A DNA stretch of 15,586 nt from NCBI RefSeq assembly GCF_006345805.1, contig NW_021825419.1, positions 1 to 15,586 of the forward strand, in the 5' to 3' direction. The notes beneath the pieces are model-generated. The model did no database searches. It saw only the letters and a program-made list of their open reading frames with translations, and was not told the origin of the DNA. Both the position numbers and the translations under genes were made by a program. The stretch comes from Octopus sinensis. Lineage: Eukaryota. This document shows positions 419 through 15,586 of the stretch, piece after piece (positions within the stretch are counted from its first letter, which is position 1; every line of letters begins with the position of its first letter).

Positions 419-817
419 CGTGCAGACGTGGTTTTATGATAAATAATCTTGCTTCCCAAGTACGTTGTCTTGGGTTCAATCCCACCGCTGGACACTTTAA
501 GCATTTATCGTGTACTATAACCCCACGCCAACTAAAACCTAATGAGTGGATGTGGTGGTCGGAAGCTGTTTGGAAGACCGTCGTATATATGTGTACGTGT
601 GTATGCAGGTGTGTTTTTCTTTGTCTCCACCACTTCTTCAGAATCGGTGTTGGTTTCTTTATGTCCTGGTAACTTAGTGCTTCGAGTGAAGGTGTACTAC
701 AAAATAAGTGGTAGTCTTTAAAAATCAGTAATAAAGTTGATTTCTTTTAATGAAAACCTTTCAAGGCAGTACGCTAACATGAACCTACAATTCAATGACT
801 GAAACAAAACAAAAAGG
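419..817 (+). mobile_element. Degenerate tRNA-derived SINE (same family as 12458-12870)
   Basis: B-box GGTTCAATCCC at 473-483, internal TA/TG tract (~583-615), central GTAACTTAG motif and 3' ATGACTGAAACA (795-806). Colinear by eye with the well-preserved copy at 12458-12870. Confidence 0.85.
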
Positions 818-819
818 AG

Positions 820-907
820 TTTGGGGATCAGTTTTCTACAAAATCCTTCAATATGGCGTCCCGGCAGAGCAAAGCAGTCCAGCGACTTAAGTAAATATAG
901 AAGATAA
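820..907 (+). mobile_element. Second, more decayed SINE 3' tail fragment
   Basis: GGGGATCAGTT...CCTTCAATATGGCGTCCCGGCAGAGC...GCAGTCCAGCGACTTAAGTAAATATAGAAGATAA loosely matches the family tail GGGATCGAGTT...AAGGCAGTGCTCCAGCATGGCCGCAGTCAAATGACTGAAACAAGTAAAAGAG. Confidence 0.5.
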
Positions 908-3839: not shown

Positions 3840-3990
3840 CTACATACCTGCTGTTGGAGATTACTTTTCCTTCTTTGGACTTTTCCCTTTCTCCTTTCCG
3901 ACGGAGAGCTATGCATGAAACGTCAAACTCTCTCTTTATCAAGCGTCAAGCTAATACATAATTGTATTATTCGTTTATTTGAATTGAGGA
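3840..3990 (+). mobile_element. Short hammerhead-containing repeat, copy A (degenerate)
   Basis: Pyrimidine tract, then TTT CCGACGG A GAGC TAT GCAT GAAACGTC AAA (3895-3927), then ...AAGCGTC...CTAATACA. Colinear with 15156-15295. Confidence 0.65.
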
Positions 3991-4092: not shown

Positions 4093-4099
4093 GGTTCAA

Positions 4100-4225
4100 A
4101 TGTACAGAAAACAAAGCACAACAACAGCTGAGGGGACATCCGGCAAGTGTATTTGTTTCACGCTACGGAAGAATGAAAAATTCCTTGACGCTTCGAACCT
4201 ACGCCACTCGACAGAAAAGAGTTAG
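4100..4225 (-). mobile_element. Short hammerhead-containing repeat, copy B (degenerate)
   Basis: Minus strand 4219-4183 reads CTTTT CTGTCGA GTGGC GTAG GTTC GAAGCGTC AAGG, then AATTTTTCATTCTTCCGTAGCGTGAAACAAATACAC. Colinear with 15177-15250. Confidence 0.7.
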
Positions 4226-4493
4226 AAGAAAGCAATGGCCAGAGGGAGACAGGCAGCCAAACAGAAAGAGAGAGAGAAAGGGACACAAAAAGAGAGAAAA
4301 AAAAGAAAATGGAGTGAGCGAAAGTGTGTCTGGATTAGCAGTTTAACATGATGAAAAAATTACATGTGTGTGTCAAAACTAACTAAATACACACAGATAC
4401 ACTTGCATACCGATATACATAATGTATATCTGTAACATATATATATAATGTATGTATATCATATATAAATAATGTATATATATATATATATAC

Positions 4494-5915
4494 AGGGATG
4501 ACATCGACTTCCTGTCCCATCTTCCCAAAACAACAGAAACAATTCAGTTTTACTAAGTTTTGATGTGGTAAGTCTCTACACCAATATTCCACTCGATTTA
4601 GGAATAAGGCGATTAAATACTGGTTAGAAAACATAGAGAAGTGATTCCCAGCAGATTCACAGTGCCATTTATTTAGACACAGTCAAACTTATTCTAGAAA
4701 ATACACATTCTTCTTCAATGGAAAGAATTACATCCAAATAGAGGCACGGCGATGGGAACGAGGTTTGCTCCCGTTTACGCCAACTCTGTATGGGATACTT
4801 AGACAACAACTCTACCAAGAGGTGGAGGTAAACTATGGCACTGGTTTAGAAAGTATATTGAAAAGGCATGGAAGAGATACCTTGACGACTGCTTCATATC
4901 TGGACGAATCTATAAATACTCTGGAAGAGTTCAATATCCTCCTGAACAACCTACACACCCATCTCTCCAATTTCAAAGGAGATGAGTAGTACCAAATTAC
5001 CATTCCTAGATATAATGGTAATTAAAAAAGACAACCACCATCACCACAGATATATAAACACACAGACACCCAATCAATCCTAAATTTTAAGTCGTGCCAT
5101 CCACCACATACAAAACGTAACATCCCATACTGCCTAGCCAGAAGAATTTGTACCATTGTAGAATGCAAATATCAGGAACACACGCCTAATAGAACTAAGA
5201 GAATTTTTGCTCAAACAAATAAACCCATCTCTACTTATAGAAAATGACCTACAGCGGGCTATAAAAATACCCATACAACAACTTAGGACAACCCAAGGAA
5301 GAGGAAAACAAGAAAACAAGTCATACCATTCATAGTGACACACAACCCATGTCACCAATATCTTCACATTGCCAAAGCAACCTACCAATCATTGCCCAAA
5401 GTAAATGAATTAAAAGACATAATCACGGATCGAGCTATGGTGCTTAGTAAAAGACAGCCTAAAAACTTGAAAACATTACTACCAAAGCAAAATTTGACCT
5501 TAGCAACAAAACCAAACATTCACGGTAATCTAAATGCAATGATAGCCGATGTGGCACATGCCATTCATACATACCGGTCAATATATAAACACAAAAACCG
5601 GGAAAATATTCACAAACGCGAATATGAACTGCAAAAGCAGAATTTAATTTACTGCATCAAATGCCACCCAATTGTGAAGGAATATATGTAGGTCAGACGG
5701 GAAACGCACTATTAGGACGCTCACGTGTACACCGGCAACAGATTAGAGACCCAGAGGTCCGTCAGATACCTTTGAGTAACCACCTAGCAATATGTGGCCG
5801 GAAAATGTATATAATATTTCCGTTCTCACAAATTACACAGCCCAAGTGAAATCGAGAGGAGAATCAGAGAAAGAATTTTATTGATAAATTCGAACCCAAG
5901 CTAAATAAGCAATAA
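4494..5915 (+). pseudogene. Penelope reverse transcriptase + GIY-YIG endonuclease, frameshifted
   Basis: Motifs in order: RDDIDFLSHLP, SFDVVSLYTNIP, GTAMGTRFAPVYAN, WKRYLDDCF, LPFLDI, SCHPPHTKRNIPYCLARRICTIVE, linker KCNDSRCGTC (CX4CX2C, Neptune hallmark), NLIYCIKC..NCEGIYVGQT..R..VHRQQIR..HLAIC, ending IDKFEPKLNKQ* (stop 5913-5915). Confidence 0.95.
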
Positions 5916-6231
5916 TAATAATACTTAGAGGTATTACTTCCACTGCTACGACCATGACCACTAACAACAACAACAATACTAAAGGTGATCAAGATGAAGA
6001 TAGCAGAAAATTATCTTATTTAGGGTTAAAAGTTCTATTGCCACCACAATCACCACTAGCAACAATAATTAAGGGTGCTGACAATGATGATGATGACAAT
6101 TGAAATATAAAATATAAAAATCTCTGACAAAGGCTATTTACAACATTTCTAAAAATAACCCAACAATTGCTGCTTCGGCCAGGGTCAAGATACAGGACTC
6201 TTGACATGTCCAACAAAGCGTGATGCCTAAA

Positions 6232-6375
6232 CCAATCAATCTCAACCAACCAATCAGCTTAAGTAATTGAGTGATACTACCACTGATTGGTCAGAATACA
6301 GTTTGCAAAACCTAGCACTCTGGAGCCTACCCAGCTGTATTTATAGCACAGAATCAATCATCTTGCTACAGTCAA
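6232..6375 (+). promoter_or_regulatory. Putative Pol II promoter in the Penelope terminal repeat
   Basis: CCAAT at 6232 and 6250, ATTGG at 6286, TATTTATA at 6338-6345, and Inr-like CAGT at 6369-6372 about 30 nt after the TATA-like box. Confidence 0.45.
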
Positions 6376-6408
6376 AATTTGTGAAGCATGACTGTCAACA
6401 CTACTACA

Positions 6409-6453
6409 TGAACCCGAAGATTGCAGAATTCAATGCATGAAAGTACTAGTTCA
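6409..6453 (+). ncRNA. Minimal type I hammerhead ribozyme (Penelope-associated)
   Basis: Stem I TGAAC/GTTCA; core CCGAAGA; stem II t-TGCA-gaattcaa-TGCA-t; GAA; palindromic stem III AGTACT; predicted cleavage after A6448. Confidence 0.85.
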
Positions 6454-6586
6454 ATCAGATGAACATTTAACATTCTACTACTATTTCATTTTTATTTTTA
6501 TTCAATTATAATATATTATCTTATAATATATCATTATAAGATTGTAAATAAAACGTGAAAATCAGACAAGGTTGGAATCCCTTTTA

Positions 6587-6588
<2 letters not shown>

Positions 6589-6620
<32 letters not shown>

Positions 6621-7928: not shown

Positions 7929-7934
7929 ATTTTC

Positions 7935-9164
7935 AAAGATTTTTTCAGCTCACTATCAAGATGAACACTGCACTTTACACTGTTGGTATCATGATGAGAT
8001 AGAATCATTCTTGAAGGCTCTGCATGATGCAACGCACTCCGCATCTGAAGAGATTCTTGGACTTCCTGATCATGGAAACATCAAAATCGGTTCAGCGATA
8101 ACAACACAGATGTCCAACAATTAATAGATAAAATGCACAAACCATGGACAAATGATAAGAGCTCATCCAGAAAAGAGAATGTCTACAAGAAATGCAGAGG
8201 ACAGATCCATCGCGCTCTGAGACAGATGAAGGAGACTTGGTGGTCTTCCAGGGCTACAGAGCTCCAAGAAGCTGCATAGAGAATGGATTCTAAAACTTTT
8301 TAATGATGGCCTTAAGAAAGTGTATCGTCCTCAAGAGCATTGCGTTACTCCTATTTTTTCATCGAATAGAGAGACACTGTTGACTGATGAATCTGACATC
8401 CTGAAACGATGGAAAGATCACATTGAAACCGTGTTGAACTCCACATCAGTCACTAATGATGACGTCATGATGTCTATTACACAATACACTGAAATATCGG
8501 AACTGTCTCTGGAACCAACCTTCCTGGAAGTGATAAACTATTTCACAGATCTCTTCTGGTAAAGCACCTGGCAGGGATGCTGTCTCTCCTGAAATCTATA
8601 AATATGGTGGACAGAAGCTATTTAAGATACTGCATGACCCCTTCATAAACATTTGAATGGGAGGTTGTGTTTCACAGGACTTCAAGATGCCTCAATTCAA
8701 CATATTTATAAGAACAAAGGAAACAGAATTGTCTGTGATAACCATTGTAGAATATCGCTTCTGTCTATTGCTGGTAAGATTCTTGCTCGACTCATTCTTC
8801 ACAGGATTATCAAACACGTAAATGATATCTATCCAGAATCCCAGTGTGGACATCGCAGTGGTCGTGGCACTATCGACATGATCTTTTCACTCCGAAAGGT
8901 CATAGTGAAGATACGTGAGAAAAATCAAGAGTTGTTCTTGATATTCTTTGACCTTACTAAGGCCTTCAACACGTCAAGCACTATGGAAAGTTCTGAAAAA
9001 GCTTGGTATACCTGACAAGATGTTGAATGTTATCATCTCCTTTCATGATGAAATGAAAGCTACTGTCATGTCCGGAGGGGGATCTTCGGCTTCCTTCGAC
9101 GTTACAATCGGCACAAAGCAAGGTTGTGATTGGCTCCTATTTAGTTTGCACTTTTCAGTGATGC
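7935..9164 (+). mobile_element. AT-rich RTE-clade LINE, left part (linker + RT N-half), decayed
   Basis: LRQMKETWWSSRATELQEAA, ILKRWKDH, GKAPGRD, IYKNKGNRIVCDNHCRISLLSIAGKILAR, PESQCGHRSGRGTIDMIFSLR, FFDLTKAFN, GTKQGC. Start is approximate. Confidence 0.93.
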
Positions 9165-10490
9165 CAGGCTCAGTCAGCAGGGAGGGGCTGTTTGCGCTCC
9201 TGGGTAGGATAGGTTGCCCTCCCAGACTGTTGAAACTCATCACCTCCTTTCACGACGGTATGCAGGGAACAGTGCAGTTTGACGGATCGCCCTCGGAGTC
9301 ATTCCCCATCCAGAGTGGAGTGAAACAGGGTTGCGTTCTGGCGCCGACGCTCTTCGGAATTTTCTTCTCCTTGTCCTGTCCTATGCCTTCAGAACGTCCG
9401 ACGACGGAGTGTTCCTCCACACCAGGCTGATGGTGGATTGTTCAATCTTGCGCGCCTCAGAGCTAAGACCAAAGTCCGTCAGGTGCTGATCAGAGATCCT
9501 CTTTGCTGACGATGCCGCCCTAACATCACACAACCAACCGGTCTCCAGAGGCTGGTCAGCTCCCTGCGGATGCCTGCCAAAAGTTCGGCCTTACCATCGG
9601 CCTGAAAAAGACAGAGATCATGGGCCAGGACGTCGGAGGAGTCCCCAGCATCAGTGTCGGCGACACAGCTTGCAGGTGGTGAACGAGTTCACTTACCTGG
9701 GATCGACGGTCTCCAGCAGCCTGTCCCTCCAGCCGGAGCTGAACAGACGGATTGGGAGGGCTGCTGCTGCCATGGCTAAGCTCTCCAGGAGAGTGTGGGA
9801 AAACACATGCTCACAATAACACCAAGATCGCAGTGTACCGAGCCTGCGTGCTGAGCACACCTACTCTACGGCAGCAAGAGCTGGACAACATACACCGGCA
9901 GGAATGCCGCCTCAGCGGCTTCCACATGCGGTGTCTTCGACGGATCCTTGGCATCTCCTGGAAGGACCGAGTACCAACGGAGTCATCCTGGAACAGACTA
10001 ATATGCCAAGCATTATGCCCTCCTCGTGCGGAGACGACTGTCGCTGGCTCGGACACGTCTGCCGCATGCAGGACGGTCGCATGCCTAAAGACATCTTGTA
10101 CAGCGAACTCACCACGGGATCCCGACCCAAGGGACGTCACAGCTACGATACAGGGACGTGTGCAAGCGGGACCTGAGGACTGCCAACATCTGTGTGGACA
10201 CGTGGGAGGAAAACAGCTGCGACCGCTCTGCCTGGCGTCGGACGGTGAGGAAAGGCGTTTCCATGGCTGAGGAGAGGAGAGCACAGCTGTGGTTGGACAG
10301 GCGGGACCTAGGAGGACAACTGCAGCAACACCCCACACGCACCCATCGATGTTCGTGTGGCAGCAAATGTACCAAGGACTAGCCACTCTAGAATTGGACT
10401 GTTCAGTCACAGCAGACGCTGCACATCATCAAAGTAGGCCCCACCCTTGGCGCAACCCATTGTCTATCAAGACAGACGGGGAAAGAAAGA
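9165..10490 (+). mobile_element. GC-rich 5'-truncated RTE-clade LINE nested in the older RTE
   Basis: SVSREGLF..GVKQGCVLAPTLF..LFADDAAL..FTYLGS..FHMRCLRRILGISWKDRV..RWLGHVCRMQDGRMPKDILY, a C-terminal CxxC..RIGLFSHSRRC finger, stop at 10435-10437, 3' hairpin TGTCT-atca-AGACA and a GAAA tail. TSD TTTCAGTGATGC at 9153-9164 and 10491-10502. Confidence 0.96.
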
Positions 10491-10712
10491 TTTCAGTGAT
10501 GCTAAGGTATGCTTTTGCTGGTATACAAATGGTGTCAAATTCCAGTTTTGAACAAGTGGTGGACTATTCAATCATCAGCAATTCAAAGCCAGAACACTGC
10601 TACGCGCCAGTATCATTCGTGATCTACTTTTTGCAGATGATGCTGCAATAGTAGCGACCACTCAGGAACTTCTCAGGAACTTTCTTCTGCATATAAAGCC
10701 TTTGGTTTAACC
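10491..10712 (+). mobile_element. AT-rich RTE LINE, right part (resumes after the nested insert), 3'-truncated
   Basis: Continues FSVM|LRYAFAG..GVKFQF*TSGGLFNHQQFKART..IRDLLFADDAAIVA..KAFGLT, after which homology stops. Confidence 0.92.
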
Positions 10713-12160: not shown

Positions 12161-12454
12161 TCTCAGTCATTAAATTACGGCCATGCTGGGACACCGCCTT
12201 AAAGAATGTTTGCCGAAAGAATCGATCCAGGCAATTATGTAATCCTGGTACTTATTCAAACGGTCGCTTTTACTGAACCGCTAAGTTACGGGGACATAAA
12301 CGCACCAACAACGCTTGTCAAGGTGTGGTAGGGTACACACATAAGGATTCTTTCCACAAGATTCTTTCAGTTTCCGTCTACCAAATTCACTCACGAGGCT
12401 TTGATCGGAGCCGGCAATTCGCGGTTGGGAAACTAACCTTTTAGTCACATCCTG
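12161..12454 (-). mobile_element. SINE copy with internal deletions
   Basis: Reverse complement of the family tail and body (CAGTCATT..CGGCCATGCTGG, GAACCGCTAAGTTACGGGGACATAAAC, TTCTTTCAGTTTCCGTCTACCAAATTCACTCAC). The head is degenerate with the B-box region deleted, and the internal microsatellite is nearly absent. Confidence 0.92.
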
Positions 12455-12457
12455 AAT

Positions 12458-12870
12458 GTGGCTGTGTGGTAAGTAGCTTGTTTACCAACCACATGGTTCC
12501 GGGTTCAGTCCCGCTGCGTGCATCTTGGGCAAGTGTCTTCTGCTATGCCCCGGGCCGACCAATGCTTGTGAGTGGATTTGGTAGACGGAAACTGAAAGAA
12601 GCCTGTCGTATATATGTATATATATATATATATATGTGTGTGTATATGTGTTTGTGTGCCTGTGTTTGTTCCATCTAGCATTGCTTGACAACCGATGCTG
12701 GTGTGTTTATGTCCCCGTTACTTAGCGGTTCGGCAAAAGAGACCGATAGAATAAGTACTGGGCTTACAAAAGAATAAGTCCCGGGATCGAGTTGCTAGAT
12801 CAAAGGCAGTGCTCCAGCATGGCCGCAGTCAAATGACTGAAACAAGTAAAAGAGTAAAAGAGTAAAGAGT
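12458..12870 (+). mobile_element. Well-preserved tRNA-derived SINE
   Basis: A-box TGGCTGTGTGG (12459-12469), B-box GGTTCAGTCCC (12502-12512), internal (TA)n(TG)n, and a tail of GTAAAAGA repeats. Confidence 0.95.
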
Positions 12871-14039: not shown

Positions 14040-14062
14040 ATGTATGTATATATGTATGTATA
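13930..14062. repeat. (TA)n-(GT)n-(ATGT)n microsatellite
   Basis: Direct reading. Confidence 0.97.
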
Positions 14063-14634
14063 TAACACAGTACTGGAATAACCAACATCTTTTTCACGGC
14101 ATAAAATCGAACTTGCCTATTATCCTACAAAGCCCCAAAATGAAAACTTTGATTGAAAAAATACCTTACGGAATAGCAGACGCCAACAAAAACGTCTTGA
14201 AAAAACACCTCACAAGGGCAGAATTCAAATCAGAGAATGAATCAGAATTCTTAGTAAAAGAATGTGGAGATAGGAGATGTGGAATATGCAACAATATCAA
14301 CAACTTCAAATACTTGGAAAGTGGTTCCCACATAAAATTCAAGAGTGGATCCCTTTTTCAAAATAAAAGCAGATAAGAACTTCAAAACGCAAAATCTCAT
14401 ATACTGCATTACCTACCCAAAATGCAAGGAAAATTACATTGGTAAAACAAATAATTCCCTCTGCCAACGTGCAAGAATACACAGGCAACATATCCGACAA
14501 GTAGAATTGCGCAATATTACATTAAAAAAGTATCTGGAAATATACGGCGTCGGAAAATTCAGGACGATCTGCAATATCGAAAGGACATGGAACTACATTT
14601 CATCGAAAAATTCTCTCCAAAGTTGAGTGTTTGA
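14058..14634 (+). pseudogene. Second Neptune-type Penelope fragment (linker + GIY-YIG endonuclease)
   Basis: LKKHLTRAEF, KECGDRRCGIC (CX4CX2C), NLIYCITYPKCKENYIGKT..RARIHRQHIR, ending MELHFIEKFSPKLSV* (stop 14632-14634). Homologous to, but clearly diverged from, 5440-5915. Confidence 0.92.
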
Positions 14635-14932
14635 AAGAAAAGCAGAGACAGTGCGTTTTGTAAGTGTTGTACTAATGTTCTCTAACACAAAATCATGGAA
14701 TTGAAAAAAGGCGTGATCGAAGTTACACAGTATGAACATGGACATATTCCCAATCAAACACACACGCACGCACACACACACACACACTCACAGAAACATG
14801 CTCACACACAGACACACGCGCGCGCGCACATATACACTTCATCAAGGAGTCCTCCCTAAAACTGAATGTTTGAAAGTAAAGTTGAGAGATTGAATTCTTT
14901 ATTCCAAATGTGGCTCTCTCTACAAATGTTCA

Positions 14933-15090
14933 GATATATGTGTGTAGCATTGAGATGTTCTAGCTTTACGTATATATATATATGTGTGTACATGTGTATA
15001 TATAATGTGCGTGTATGTATATGTATATACATGTGTGTATATATGTGTGTGTATATGTACATATATATACATATATATACATATATATAT

Positions 15091-15154
<64 letters not shown>

Positions 15155-15155
15155 T
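14933..15155. repeat. (TA)n/(TG)n microsatellite region
   Basis: Direct reading. Confidence 0.95.
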
Positions 15156-15295
15156 CCTTGTTTTTTTTCTGTGTCCCTTTCTGTAGAAGAGCGTAGGCTC
15201 GAAACGTAAAAGACGTTTTCTCTATTCTGAGCGTTATATTAATACATCTGTTTGTTTTGTAACAACCCCTATCTTCGTCGTTTTATTTTATTTAC
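15156..15295 (+). mobile_element. Short hammerhead-containing repeat, copy C (best preserved)
   Basis: Starts at the end of (TA)n. Homologous to 3840-3990 (+) and 4100-4225 (-). Confidence 0.75.
15173..15214 (+). ncRNA. Minimal type I hammerhead-like motif with variant core
   Basis: Stem I CTTT/AAAG; core CTGTAGA plus an extra A; stem II GAGC-gtag-GCTC; GAA; palindromic stem III ACGT; GUA triplet with predicted cleavage after A15208. Confidence 0.75.
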
Positions 15296-15586
15296 TGATT
15301 GGTTTTTCAAAATGTTATTTTGCAAATATTATACTAATGTATTTTCATGCAGAACTACACTTTATCAAAAAATTCCCTCCAAAAATGAATGTTTGGAAGC
15401 CGTATATTCTAAATATAACTCAGAAAGGAGAAAAAGAAAGGATCAAAAAGGAAAGAAAAAGGAAAGAAGAAAAGGAGGTGAAAAAGAAAAACAAAAGAAG
15501 AGAGATAGAAAGAGAGCAAAAAAACTTTCAGTGCTGATCAAACCACACCTGTTTTTTTTTAAAGAGATCACCATCCTTAAAAACCC

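What the first reader, a model, noticed from the sequence alone, without database searches (positions are those of the whole stretch)
15156..15295. Short, non-coding, microsatellite-associated repeat carrying a minimal hammerhead with a non-canonical core (candidate cephalopod retrozyme/PLE-derived family)
Seen: CTTT-CTGTAGA-A-GAGC(GTAG)GCTC-GAA-ACGT-A-AAAG lies about 20 nt after a (TA)n tract, and two more homologous copies occur at 3895-3927 (+) and 4183-4219 (-). Two of the three copies have CUGU instead of the conserved CUGA (A6->U). All three have an extra nucleotide after core position 9 and an ultra-short stem III that can only form stably as a dimer. Established: minimal type I hammerheads with palindromic stem III occur in Penelope-like elements and in metazoan non-autonomous retrozymes. 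Inference: three copies in 15 kb imply a very high copy-number family, probably mobilised by Neptune PLEs. The shared A6U suggests a family-level variant core rather than random decay, meaning either a new active variant or a fold retained for RT recognition.
Basis: partly seen in the sequence, partly recalled or inferred. Interest (0 to 1): 0.8.

Follow-up and report, generated by a model that had tools for sequence, protein, structure and literature searches.

The report
Penelope retrotransposon end with altered hammerhead
This is a broken-off end of a very abundant Penelope-type jumping gene; its hammerhead-shaped RNA motif carries, in nearly all copies, a letter change at a position where changes weaken other hammerheads, so it likely cuts slowly or only with help from the element's own protein.

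Summary
The motif is real (core at 15181-15208), but it is not a short non-autonomous retrozyme. It is a truncated 3' end (pseudo-LTR) of a Neptune-type Penelope-like retrotransposon (PLE). Of 30 loci picked by the family's GIY-YIG domain, 28 carry this hammerhead downstream, and two partial tandems hold it twice, 4,273 nt apart, around an RT-endonuclease ORF. The extra base after A9 and the palindromic mini stem III are the published PLE consensus. What is unusual is U6: 13,318 of 13,792 exact genomic matches (96.6%) have it, a sister family has A6, and A6 copies are scattered single tips. Across seven subfamily groups only N7 and H17 change (2 of 28 core columns against 62 of 143 flank columns), the two positions a hammerhead leaves free. 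So the fold is under selection with U6 fixed. Cleavage is untested; published position-6 changes lower activity. Most likely it is a slow, dimer- and protein-assisted ribozyme; a dead fold kept for protein binding is the main rival. No report of U6 was found, but one key paper and Repbase/Dfam were unavailable. Verdict: new variant of a known kind.

The parts
15156..15282 (+). Fragment of the 3' pseudo-LTR of a Neptune-type PLE, cut at both ends
   Evidence: 91% (123/135) identical to the 3' end of ORF-bearing copy L203; lacks the upstream UTR and the last ~25 nt before the usual (TA)n
15177..15212 (+). Minimal type I hammerhead: stem I 4 bp, core CUGUAGA plus extra A, stem II 4 bp with GUAG loop, GAA, palindromic ACGU, H17 = A at 15208
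   Evidence: architecture as in PMC4209133
15184..15184 (+). U6, the non-canonical core base, fixed in the lineage
   Evidence: 13,318 of 13,792; 28 of 28 hammerheads in endonuclease-selected loci
14971..15155 (.). (TA)n-type microsatellite, the inferred insertion target
   Evidence: paralogous empty sites L114, L123, L133 have the tract followed directly by the sequence that resumes at 15278
14060..14970 (+). Older, different PLE (GIY-YIG fragment and 3' region) that hosts the insertion; it resumes at 15278
   Evidence: its endonuclease family is only about 26-31% identical to the U6 family ORF
4094..4249 (-). Old decayed copy of the U6 lineage (C3 at 4214, U6, C7)
   Evidence: 71-74% identity to old-type copies L037, L047, L033
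3838..3960 (+). Decayed copy of a related A6 hammerhead family (C3 at 3898), not the U6 lineage
   Evidence: 80% to an A6 copy in L032, about 72% to the triloop sister family

Best explanation
The motif is the hammerhead in the terminal repeat of a protein-coding Neptune-type Penelope-like retrotransposon, left here as a truncated copy in a (TA)n tract, and its fixed U6 core likely makes it a slow ribozyme that would cut only as a dimer and with help from the element's RT-endonuclease. Shown: the ORF link, the partial-tandem layout (unit 4,273 nt), 5' truncation, (TA)n ends, U6 fixed through a succession of subfamilies, and constraint on every core position except N7 and H17. Inferred: transcription from the upstream repeat gives an RNA with two hammerheads that pair through the ACGU palindrome. 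Most RNA stays uncut or is re-ligated and is copied by target-primed reverse transcription starting about 100-125 nt 3' of the hammerhead. Weak cleavage would be tolerated, or favoured, because the template has to span the hammerhead. Identity of the element is about 0.97; the stated confidence is for the whole, including residual cleavage.
For: ORF link: copies run upstream through a C-rich 3' UTR into RT and GIY-YIG frames. 28 of 30 endonuclease-selected loci have the hammerhead 271-1009 nt downstream on the same strand, all U6. 10 of 10 long-frame loci have it, and L238 and L239 have two direct copies 4,273 nt apart. 8 of 30 motif-selected copies reach the ORF within 1.5 kb, and 28 of 30 have a TA-type tract 70-150 nt after the core. 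Constraint: 2 of 28 core columns (N7, H17) and 0 of 8 stem I columns differ among 7 subfamily groups, against 62 of 143 flank columns, Fisher p=0.0002. G17 occurs in only 100 of 13,318. In four public runs with four organism labels, laid at 80% likeness, N7 shows all four bases, H17 shows A and U, and position 6 shows no variant at 2%. Stem I pair 4 is C-G here and G-C in the A6 sister family. Copies starting at H17/+1 number 26 against 13 at one control TA site. Literature: natural A6C is slow but active (PMC3088659, PMC7151607), and a PLE hammerhead cleaved only with the PLE protein present (PMC11167929).
Against: No cleavage assay. In a pairwise mutagenesis of another hammerhead, all single and double mutants of the CUGA region except the C3-G8 swap had low activity (PMC9901934, passages). 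A6C cut the Mg2+ rate drastically (PMC7151607). Hammerhead-dead mutants did not affect PLE insertion in vitro, and no RNA-seq ends were seen at the cut site (PMC11167929). The 26 versus 13 excess is weak (p=0.03-0.06, one control site, under 1% of copies). Stem II is invariant within the family, so it shows no covariation. Older groups were found by core pattern, which inflates core conservation; four groups were endonuclease-selected and one search is pattern-free. H17 flips only between A and U, so avoidance of G has little power. With 25-nt flanks ViennaRNA loses even stem II in most copies tested.
Confidence: 0.55

Rival explanations
1. Same element, but the U6 hammerhead is catalytically dead. 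The fold and palindrome are kept as a binding or dimerisation signal for the RT-endonuclease.
For: CUGA mutants have low activity. Cleavage is dispensable for insertion in vitro. L238 and L239 extend 300-500 nt 5' of an intact upstream hammerhead, so their template was uncut, re-ligated or joined at insertion. A second PLE family with open 775-777 aa frames has C4 in its hammerhead-like motif in 30 of 31 matches. U6 lets U4-G5-U6 pair with A15.1-C15.2-G16.2 in short constructs (P 0.8-0.98 in the A7 and U7 subfamilies).
Against: G8, G12, the GAAA box and a non-G H17 all stay fixed while N7 changes at least four times, which is the catalytic pattern. There is a two-fold excess of 5' ends at the scissile site. 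The U6-A15.1 pairing is weak in other subfamilies and mostly vanishes with longer flanks.
Confidence: 0.3
2. The 27-mer is conserved at the DNA level (promoter or endonuclease-recognition element of the pseudo-LTR) or by slow drift, and the hammerhead is a relic with no RNA-level selection since A6U arose.
For: pLTRs carry promoters (PMC6765202 passage). There is no compensatory change inside the family.
Against: The only two variable core columns are N7 and H17 (1 in 378 if two of 28 columns were drawn at random), and flanks diverged to about 60% identity over the same span.
Confidence: 0.12
3. One reading: a short non-autonomous retrozyme or SINE-like family mobilised in trans.
For: 22 of 30 motif-selected copies do not reach the ORF within 1.5 kb. 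Many begin about 80 nt upstream of the core.
Against: 5' ends are ragged and continue into the same UTR and ORF. No tandem array of 150-450 nt units was seen among loci L001-L110; the 6 loci there with two or three copies have microsatellite or unrelated DNA between them, as far as inspected. Full elements carry the identical core.
Confidence: 0.03

Closest known systems
Minimal hammerheads (min-HHR) in pseudo-LTRs of metazoan PLEs (Cervera and De la Pena 2014, PMC4209133)
   Same: Type I, 4-5 bp stem I, extra base between 9 and 10.1, G10.1-C11.1, palindromic 15.2-16.2, U-rich 5' flank, thousands of solo truncated copies, two copies around the ORF.
   Different: The published consensus is CUGANGAH, and the reported core variant is the compensatory U3-A8. 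None of the rows in the part of Fig. S3 that I read has U6. Here U6 is fixed and uncompensated in primary sequence.
Neptune clade of endonuclease-bearing PLEs (layout from PMC8557442, text and Fig. S2 passages)
   Same: Single ORF, DKG motif, RT then CX2-5CxxC linker then C-terminal GIY-YIG with two Cys and two His, GLN end, microsatellite target, partial tandems.
   Different: A family not matched to any named entry here; best full-length relatives are 47-49% identical and unnamed.
Natural A6C hammerhead of phage Bcep176 (PMC3088659, PMC7151607)
   Same: Natural substitution at core position 6 with the rest of the core intact.
   Different: A single phage ribozyme with C6, slow in Mg2+ and rescued by Mn2+; here U6, in a minimal dimer-type motif present about 20,000 times.
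Metazoan non-LTR retrozymes (PMC7229834; bioRxiv 10.64898/2026.07.22.740005)
   Same: Type I hammerhead, related to PLE terminal repeats.
   Different: Retrozymes are non-coding tandem units of a few hundred nt; this repeat is the end of a 4.3-kb coding element.

Membership tests
PLE (endonuclease-bearing) | One ORF with RT and C-terminal GIY-YIG | tested here: met
   RVT_1 E=6.7e-8 and GIY-YIG E about 1e-3 (below Pfam's cut-off) in L201 and L203; one 975-codon frame spans both in L238. The N-terminal part is frameshifted in the copies read.
PLE (endonuclease-bearing) | Partial tandems forming direct pseudo-LTRs, with 5' truncation | tested here: met
   L238 and L239, spacing 4,273 nt; ragged 5' ends. 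L244's upstream copy is an independent solo.
Neptune clade | CX2-5CxxC linker with long spacer, CCHH-type endonuclease, microsatellite target | tested here: met
   Motifs read and compared by eye with Fig. S2 passages; (TA)n ends in 28 of 30
Neptune clade | Placement in an RT phylogeny with named references | not tested
   No reference set held; the clade call rests on motifs
PLE minimal hammerhead | Stems I and II, extra base at 9/10.1, G10.1-C11.1, palindromic stem III, H17 not G | tested here: met
PLE minimal hammerhead | Core CUGANGA (A6) | tested here: not met
   U6 in 96.6%; so a variant, not a consensus member
PLE minimal hammerhead | Stem covariation | tested here: inconclusive
   Invariant within the lineage; one compensatory stem I pair against the A6 sister family
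PLE minimal hammerhead | Self-cleavage after H17 as a dimer | not testable with these tools
   Only an indirect and weak genomic hint; the public runs are contigs and show no RNA ends
Non-LTR retrozyme | Non-coding short unit in tandem arrays | tested here: not met
   Continuous with a coding 4.3-kb unit; no arrays seen in L001-L110
Non-LTR retrozyme | Abundant circular RNA | not testable with these tools
   No run on record as RNA, contigs only

The most novel reading that the evidence does not exclude
A retrotransposon lineage has fixed and kept, through roughly 30-40% flank divergence and about 20,000 insertions, a working hammerhead with U at the near-invariant position 6. U6 latches the monomer shut by pairing with the stem III palindrome, and dimerisation or the element's own protein releases it, making this a natural protein-gated ribozyme with a new core.
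Probability: 0.25. Interest if true: 0.75.

Novelty: new variant of a known kind. Interest (0 to 1): 0.5.

Why it matters
What hammerheads do in PLEs is unsettled: they are widespread in these elements, slow in vitro, and dispensable for insertion in the one reconstituted system (PMC11167929). This family is a natural experiment. A core change expected to lower catalysis was fixed in the master lineage, which then kept amplifying while preserving everything else. If it cleaves, the hammerhead core consensus widens and descriptor searches that require CUGA miss a family that outnumbers the canonical ones in the same pattern search here (19,898 against 12,295 motifs). If it does not cleave, PLE hammerheads are being kept for structure. 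Natural A6 copies and an A6 sister family supply ready controls.

Tried and rejected
Rfam scan: no hammerhead family hit. Linking the motif to the PLE fragments in the window (4500-5910, 14060-14630): their families do not end in this repeat, and paralogous empty sites show an independent insertion. The near-absence of hits first suggested solo copies, but the queries were the wrong families; corrected. A Pfam GIY-YIG search of the genome returned other PLE families, not this one. A6 as a surviving ancestral subfamily: rejected, since the 7 A6 copies sampled fall in different subfamilies and non-U bases are mostly C (68 C, 23 A, 9 G in the first 100 of 474, hand count). Expression: no RNA holder listed; contigs cannot show ends or circles. 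Metagenome scan: 5 hits, none with the family's flanks or ORF. Folding: the monomer latch is not robust to flank length, and the hand-built dimer (-13.9 kcal/mol) is not the predicted minimum (-21.6). Earlier scan notes: three look-ups, nothing returned. PMC11014351 passages gave nothing on position 6.

Full report
Observation. Rfam does not detect it. In the own genome G000 (2.72 Gb) the 27-mer with positions 6 and 7 free matches 13,792 times, control 0. The copy at 4214 (-) is an old member of the same lineage; the copy at 3898 (+) is from a related A6 family and is decayed.

Position 6. Only 474 of the 13,792 matches lack T at position 6, so U6 is in 96.6%. Among the first 100 of those 474 I counted 68 C, 23 A and 9 G, as expected from mutation after insertion. 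Position 7 takes all four bases. With stem II left free there are 19,898 U6 motifs (control 6) and 12,295 A6 motifs (control 9). The A6 set includes a sister family with the same stem II, a three-base loop and homologous flanks, and a family with a longer stem II. Contigs of four public runs, labelled with four different organism codes and laid at 80% likeness, show no variant at position 6 at the 2% threshold, while N7 and H17 vary. Whether those runs are RNA is a guess by the tool.

What the element is. Copies share a 3' end about 100-125 nt after the core, followed by (TA)n (28 of 30 motif-selected loci), but have ragged 5' ends. Of seven long copies fetched, six show endonuclease or RT similarity upstream of a C-rich low-complexity UTR. 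Selecting the other way round, by the endonuclease of a copy from the window's own subfamily, 28 of 30 loci have the hammerhead downstream on the same strand, all U6. Ten loci chosen for long open frames all carry it. L238 and L239 are partial tandems with two U6 hammerheads 4,273 nt apart around a 5' UTR and ORF; their N-terminal frames are broken. The protein has the DKG motif, a CX4CxxC linker, a C-terminal GIY-YIG and a GLN end. By eye this matches the Neptune rows, not the Nematis rows, in the Fig. S2 passages of PMC8557442; no RT tree with references was built. The best relatives are full-length proteins at 47-49% identity. Of 10 looked up, one has an organism name, an uncharacterised snail protein. 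The window copy is 91% identical to the end of L203 and sits in the microsatellite of an older, different PLE; three paralogues of that host show the empty site.

Selection on the motif. I built a tree from 145 of 155 natural copies (10 dropped for short flanks), with positions 6, 7 and 17 masked and the A6 sister family as root. It shows a ladder of subfamilies, with A6 copies as scattered tips (the middle of that output was cut, the tip order is). Among seven U6 groups (127 copies, of which up to 20 had been picked as non-U6), the majority base differs at 2 of 28 core columns, N7 and H17, at 0 of 8 stem I columns, and at 62 of 143 flank columns (Fisher p=0.0002). Flank identity between the oldest group and the rest is about 0.60. 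G17 is at background, 100 of 13,318. One stem I pair is C-G here and G-C in the sister family. Caveats: older groups were found by core pattern, groups were cut by eye, and stem II shows no covariation because it does not vary.

How it likely works. Shown: location in the pseudo-LTR, two copies per full transcript unit, constraint on the core. From the literature: such motifs need a second copy to form stem III and cleave weakly (PMC4209133, parts 1-2 of 4 and part of supplement 2 read; supplement 1 not searchable). A PLE hammerhead cleaved only with the PLE protein, and dead mutants still supported insertion (PMC11167929, parts 1-2 of 4). A6C is slow in Mg2+ but active, more so in Mn2+ (PMC7151607, parts 1-2 of 4; PMC3088659, passages). 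CUGA-region mutants of another hammerhead had low activity with no second-site rescue except the C3-G8 swap (PMC9901934, passages). I found no measurement of A6U itself. Inferred: a slow, dimer- and protein-assisted ribozyme, with most templates uncut or re-ligated, since genomic copies read through intact hammerheads at both ends. As a genomic hint I counted copies of the youngest subfamily that start at the scissile site: 35 hits, 29 of 30 inspected being true truncations, 26 of them at the TA microhomology, against 13 at one control TA site 15 nt upstream (p=0.03-0.06). That is no spike. ViennaRNA predicts that U6 lets U4-G5-U6 pair with the stem III palindrome in 44-nt constructs of the A7 and U7 subfamilies (P 0.8-0.98), less in the C7 and G7 subfamilies (0.44 or lower), and mostly not with 25-nt flanks. 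This is an idea to probe, not a result.

Comparison and novelty. The extra base and the mini palindrome are the published consensus, so they are not new. Retrozyme membership fails (PMC7229834, passages, supplement unreadable; bioRxiv 10.64898/2026.07.22.740005, parts 1-2 of 5). Nine library searches listed no report of a natural U6 hammerhead or of this family; most hits were seen only as listings. Lunse, Weinberg and Breaker (RNA Biol 14:1499), which by its title surveys many PLE-associated variants, is not held, and Repbase and Dfam are not available, so U6 or the family may already be catalogued. Verdict: a known kind of element and ribozyme with a real, lineage-fixed core variant of untested activity; interest 0.5.

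Noticed in passing
window 6409-6455 (+), in the PLE at 4500-6590: A second PLE family, with open frames of 775-777 aa elsewhere in G000, has a hammerhead-like motif with C4 (CCGAAGA) and no G10.1-C11.1 pair; C4 in 30 of 31 matches. Another family-level core variant in the same genome.
   Followed up: partly
L177, L178, L187, L190-L193, L198, L200, 3' of GIY-YIG: A third PLE family carries the known compensatory U3-A8 hammerhead core.
   Followed up: no
L082-L110: An abundant A6 hammerhead family with a longer stem II, often after (AAT)n or (AAC)n tracts; about half of the first 100 hits. Parent element not sought.
   Followed up: no
L249:1501-1529 (-): A metagenome contig holds a well-formed minimal hammerhead with U6, a 6-bp stem I and the same stem II arms but unrelated flanks; a single copy, so it may be decay.
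   Followed up: partly
window 7930-10700: Broken LINE-type reverse transcriptase frames, with a GC-richer second element apparently nested at about 9150-10490; RTE-like by recalled motifs, not tested.
   Followed up: no
window 420-830 and 12170-12850: Related SINE-like repeats in direct and inverted orientation (families D10, D19, D20 and pair I13); the same repeat flanks many fetched loci.
   Followed up: no
window 14587-14637, 14826-14876, 15349-15399: Three copies of the last codons of the host PLE's ORF, a composite 3' region also seen in paralogue L114.
   Followed up: partly
L238:3275-3290: The junction between tandem units contains a short TATATA, so the element appears to carry a piece resembling its own target site.
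   Followed up: no
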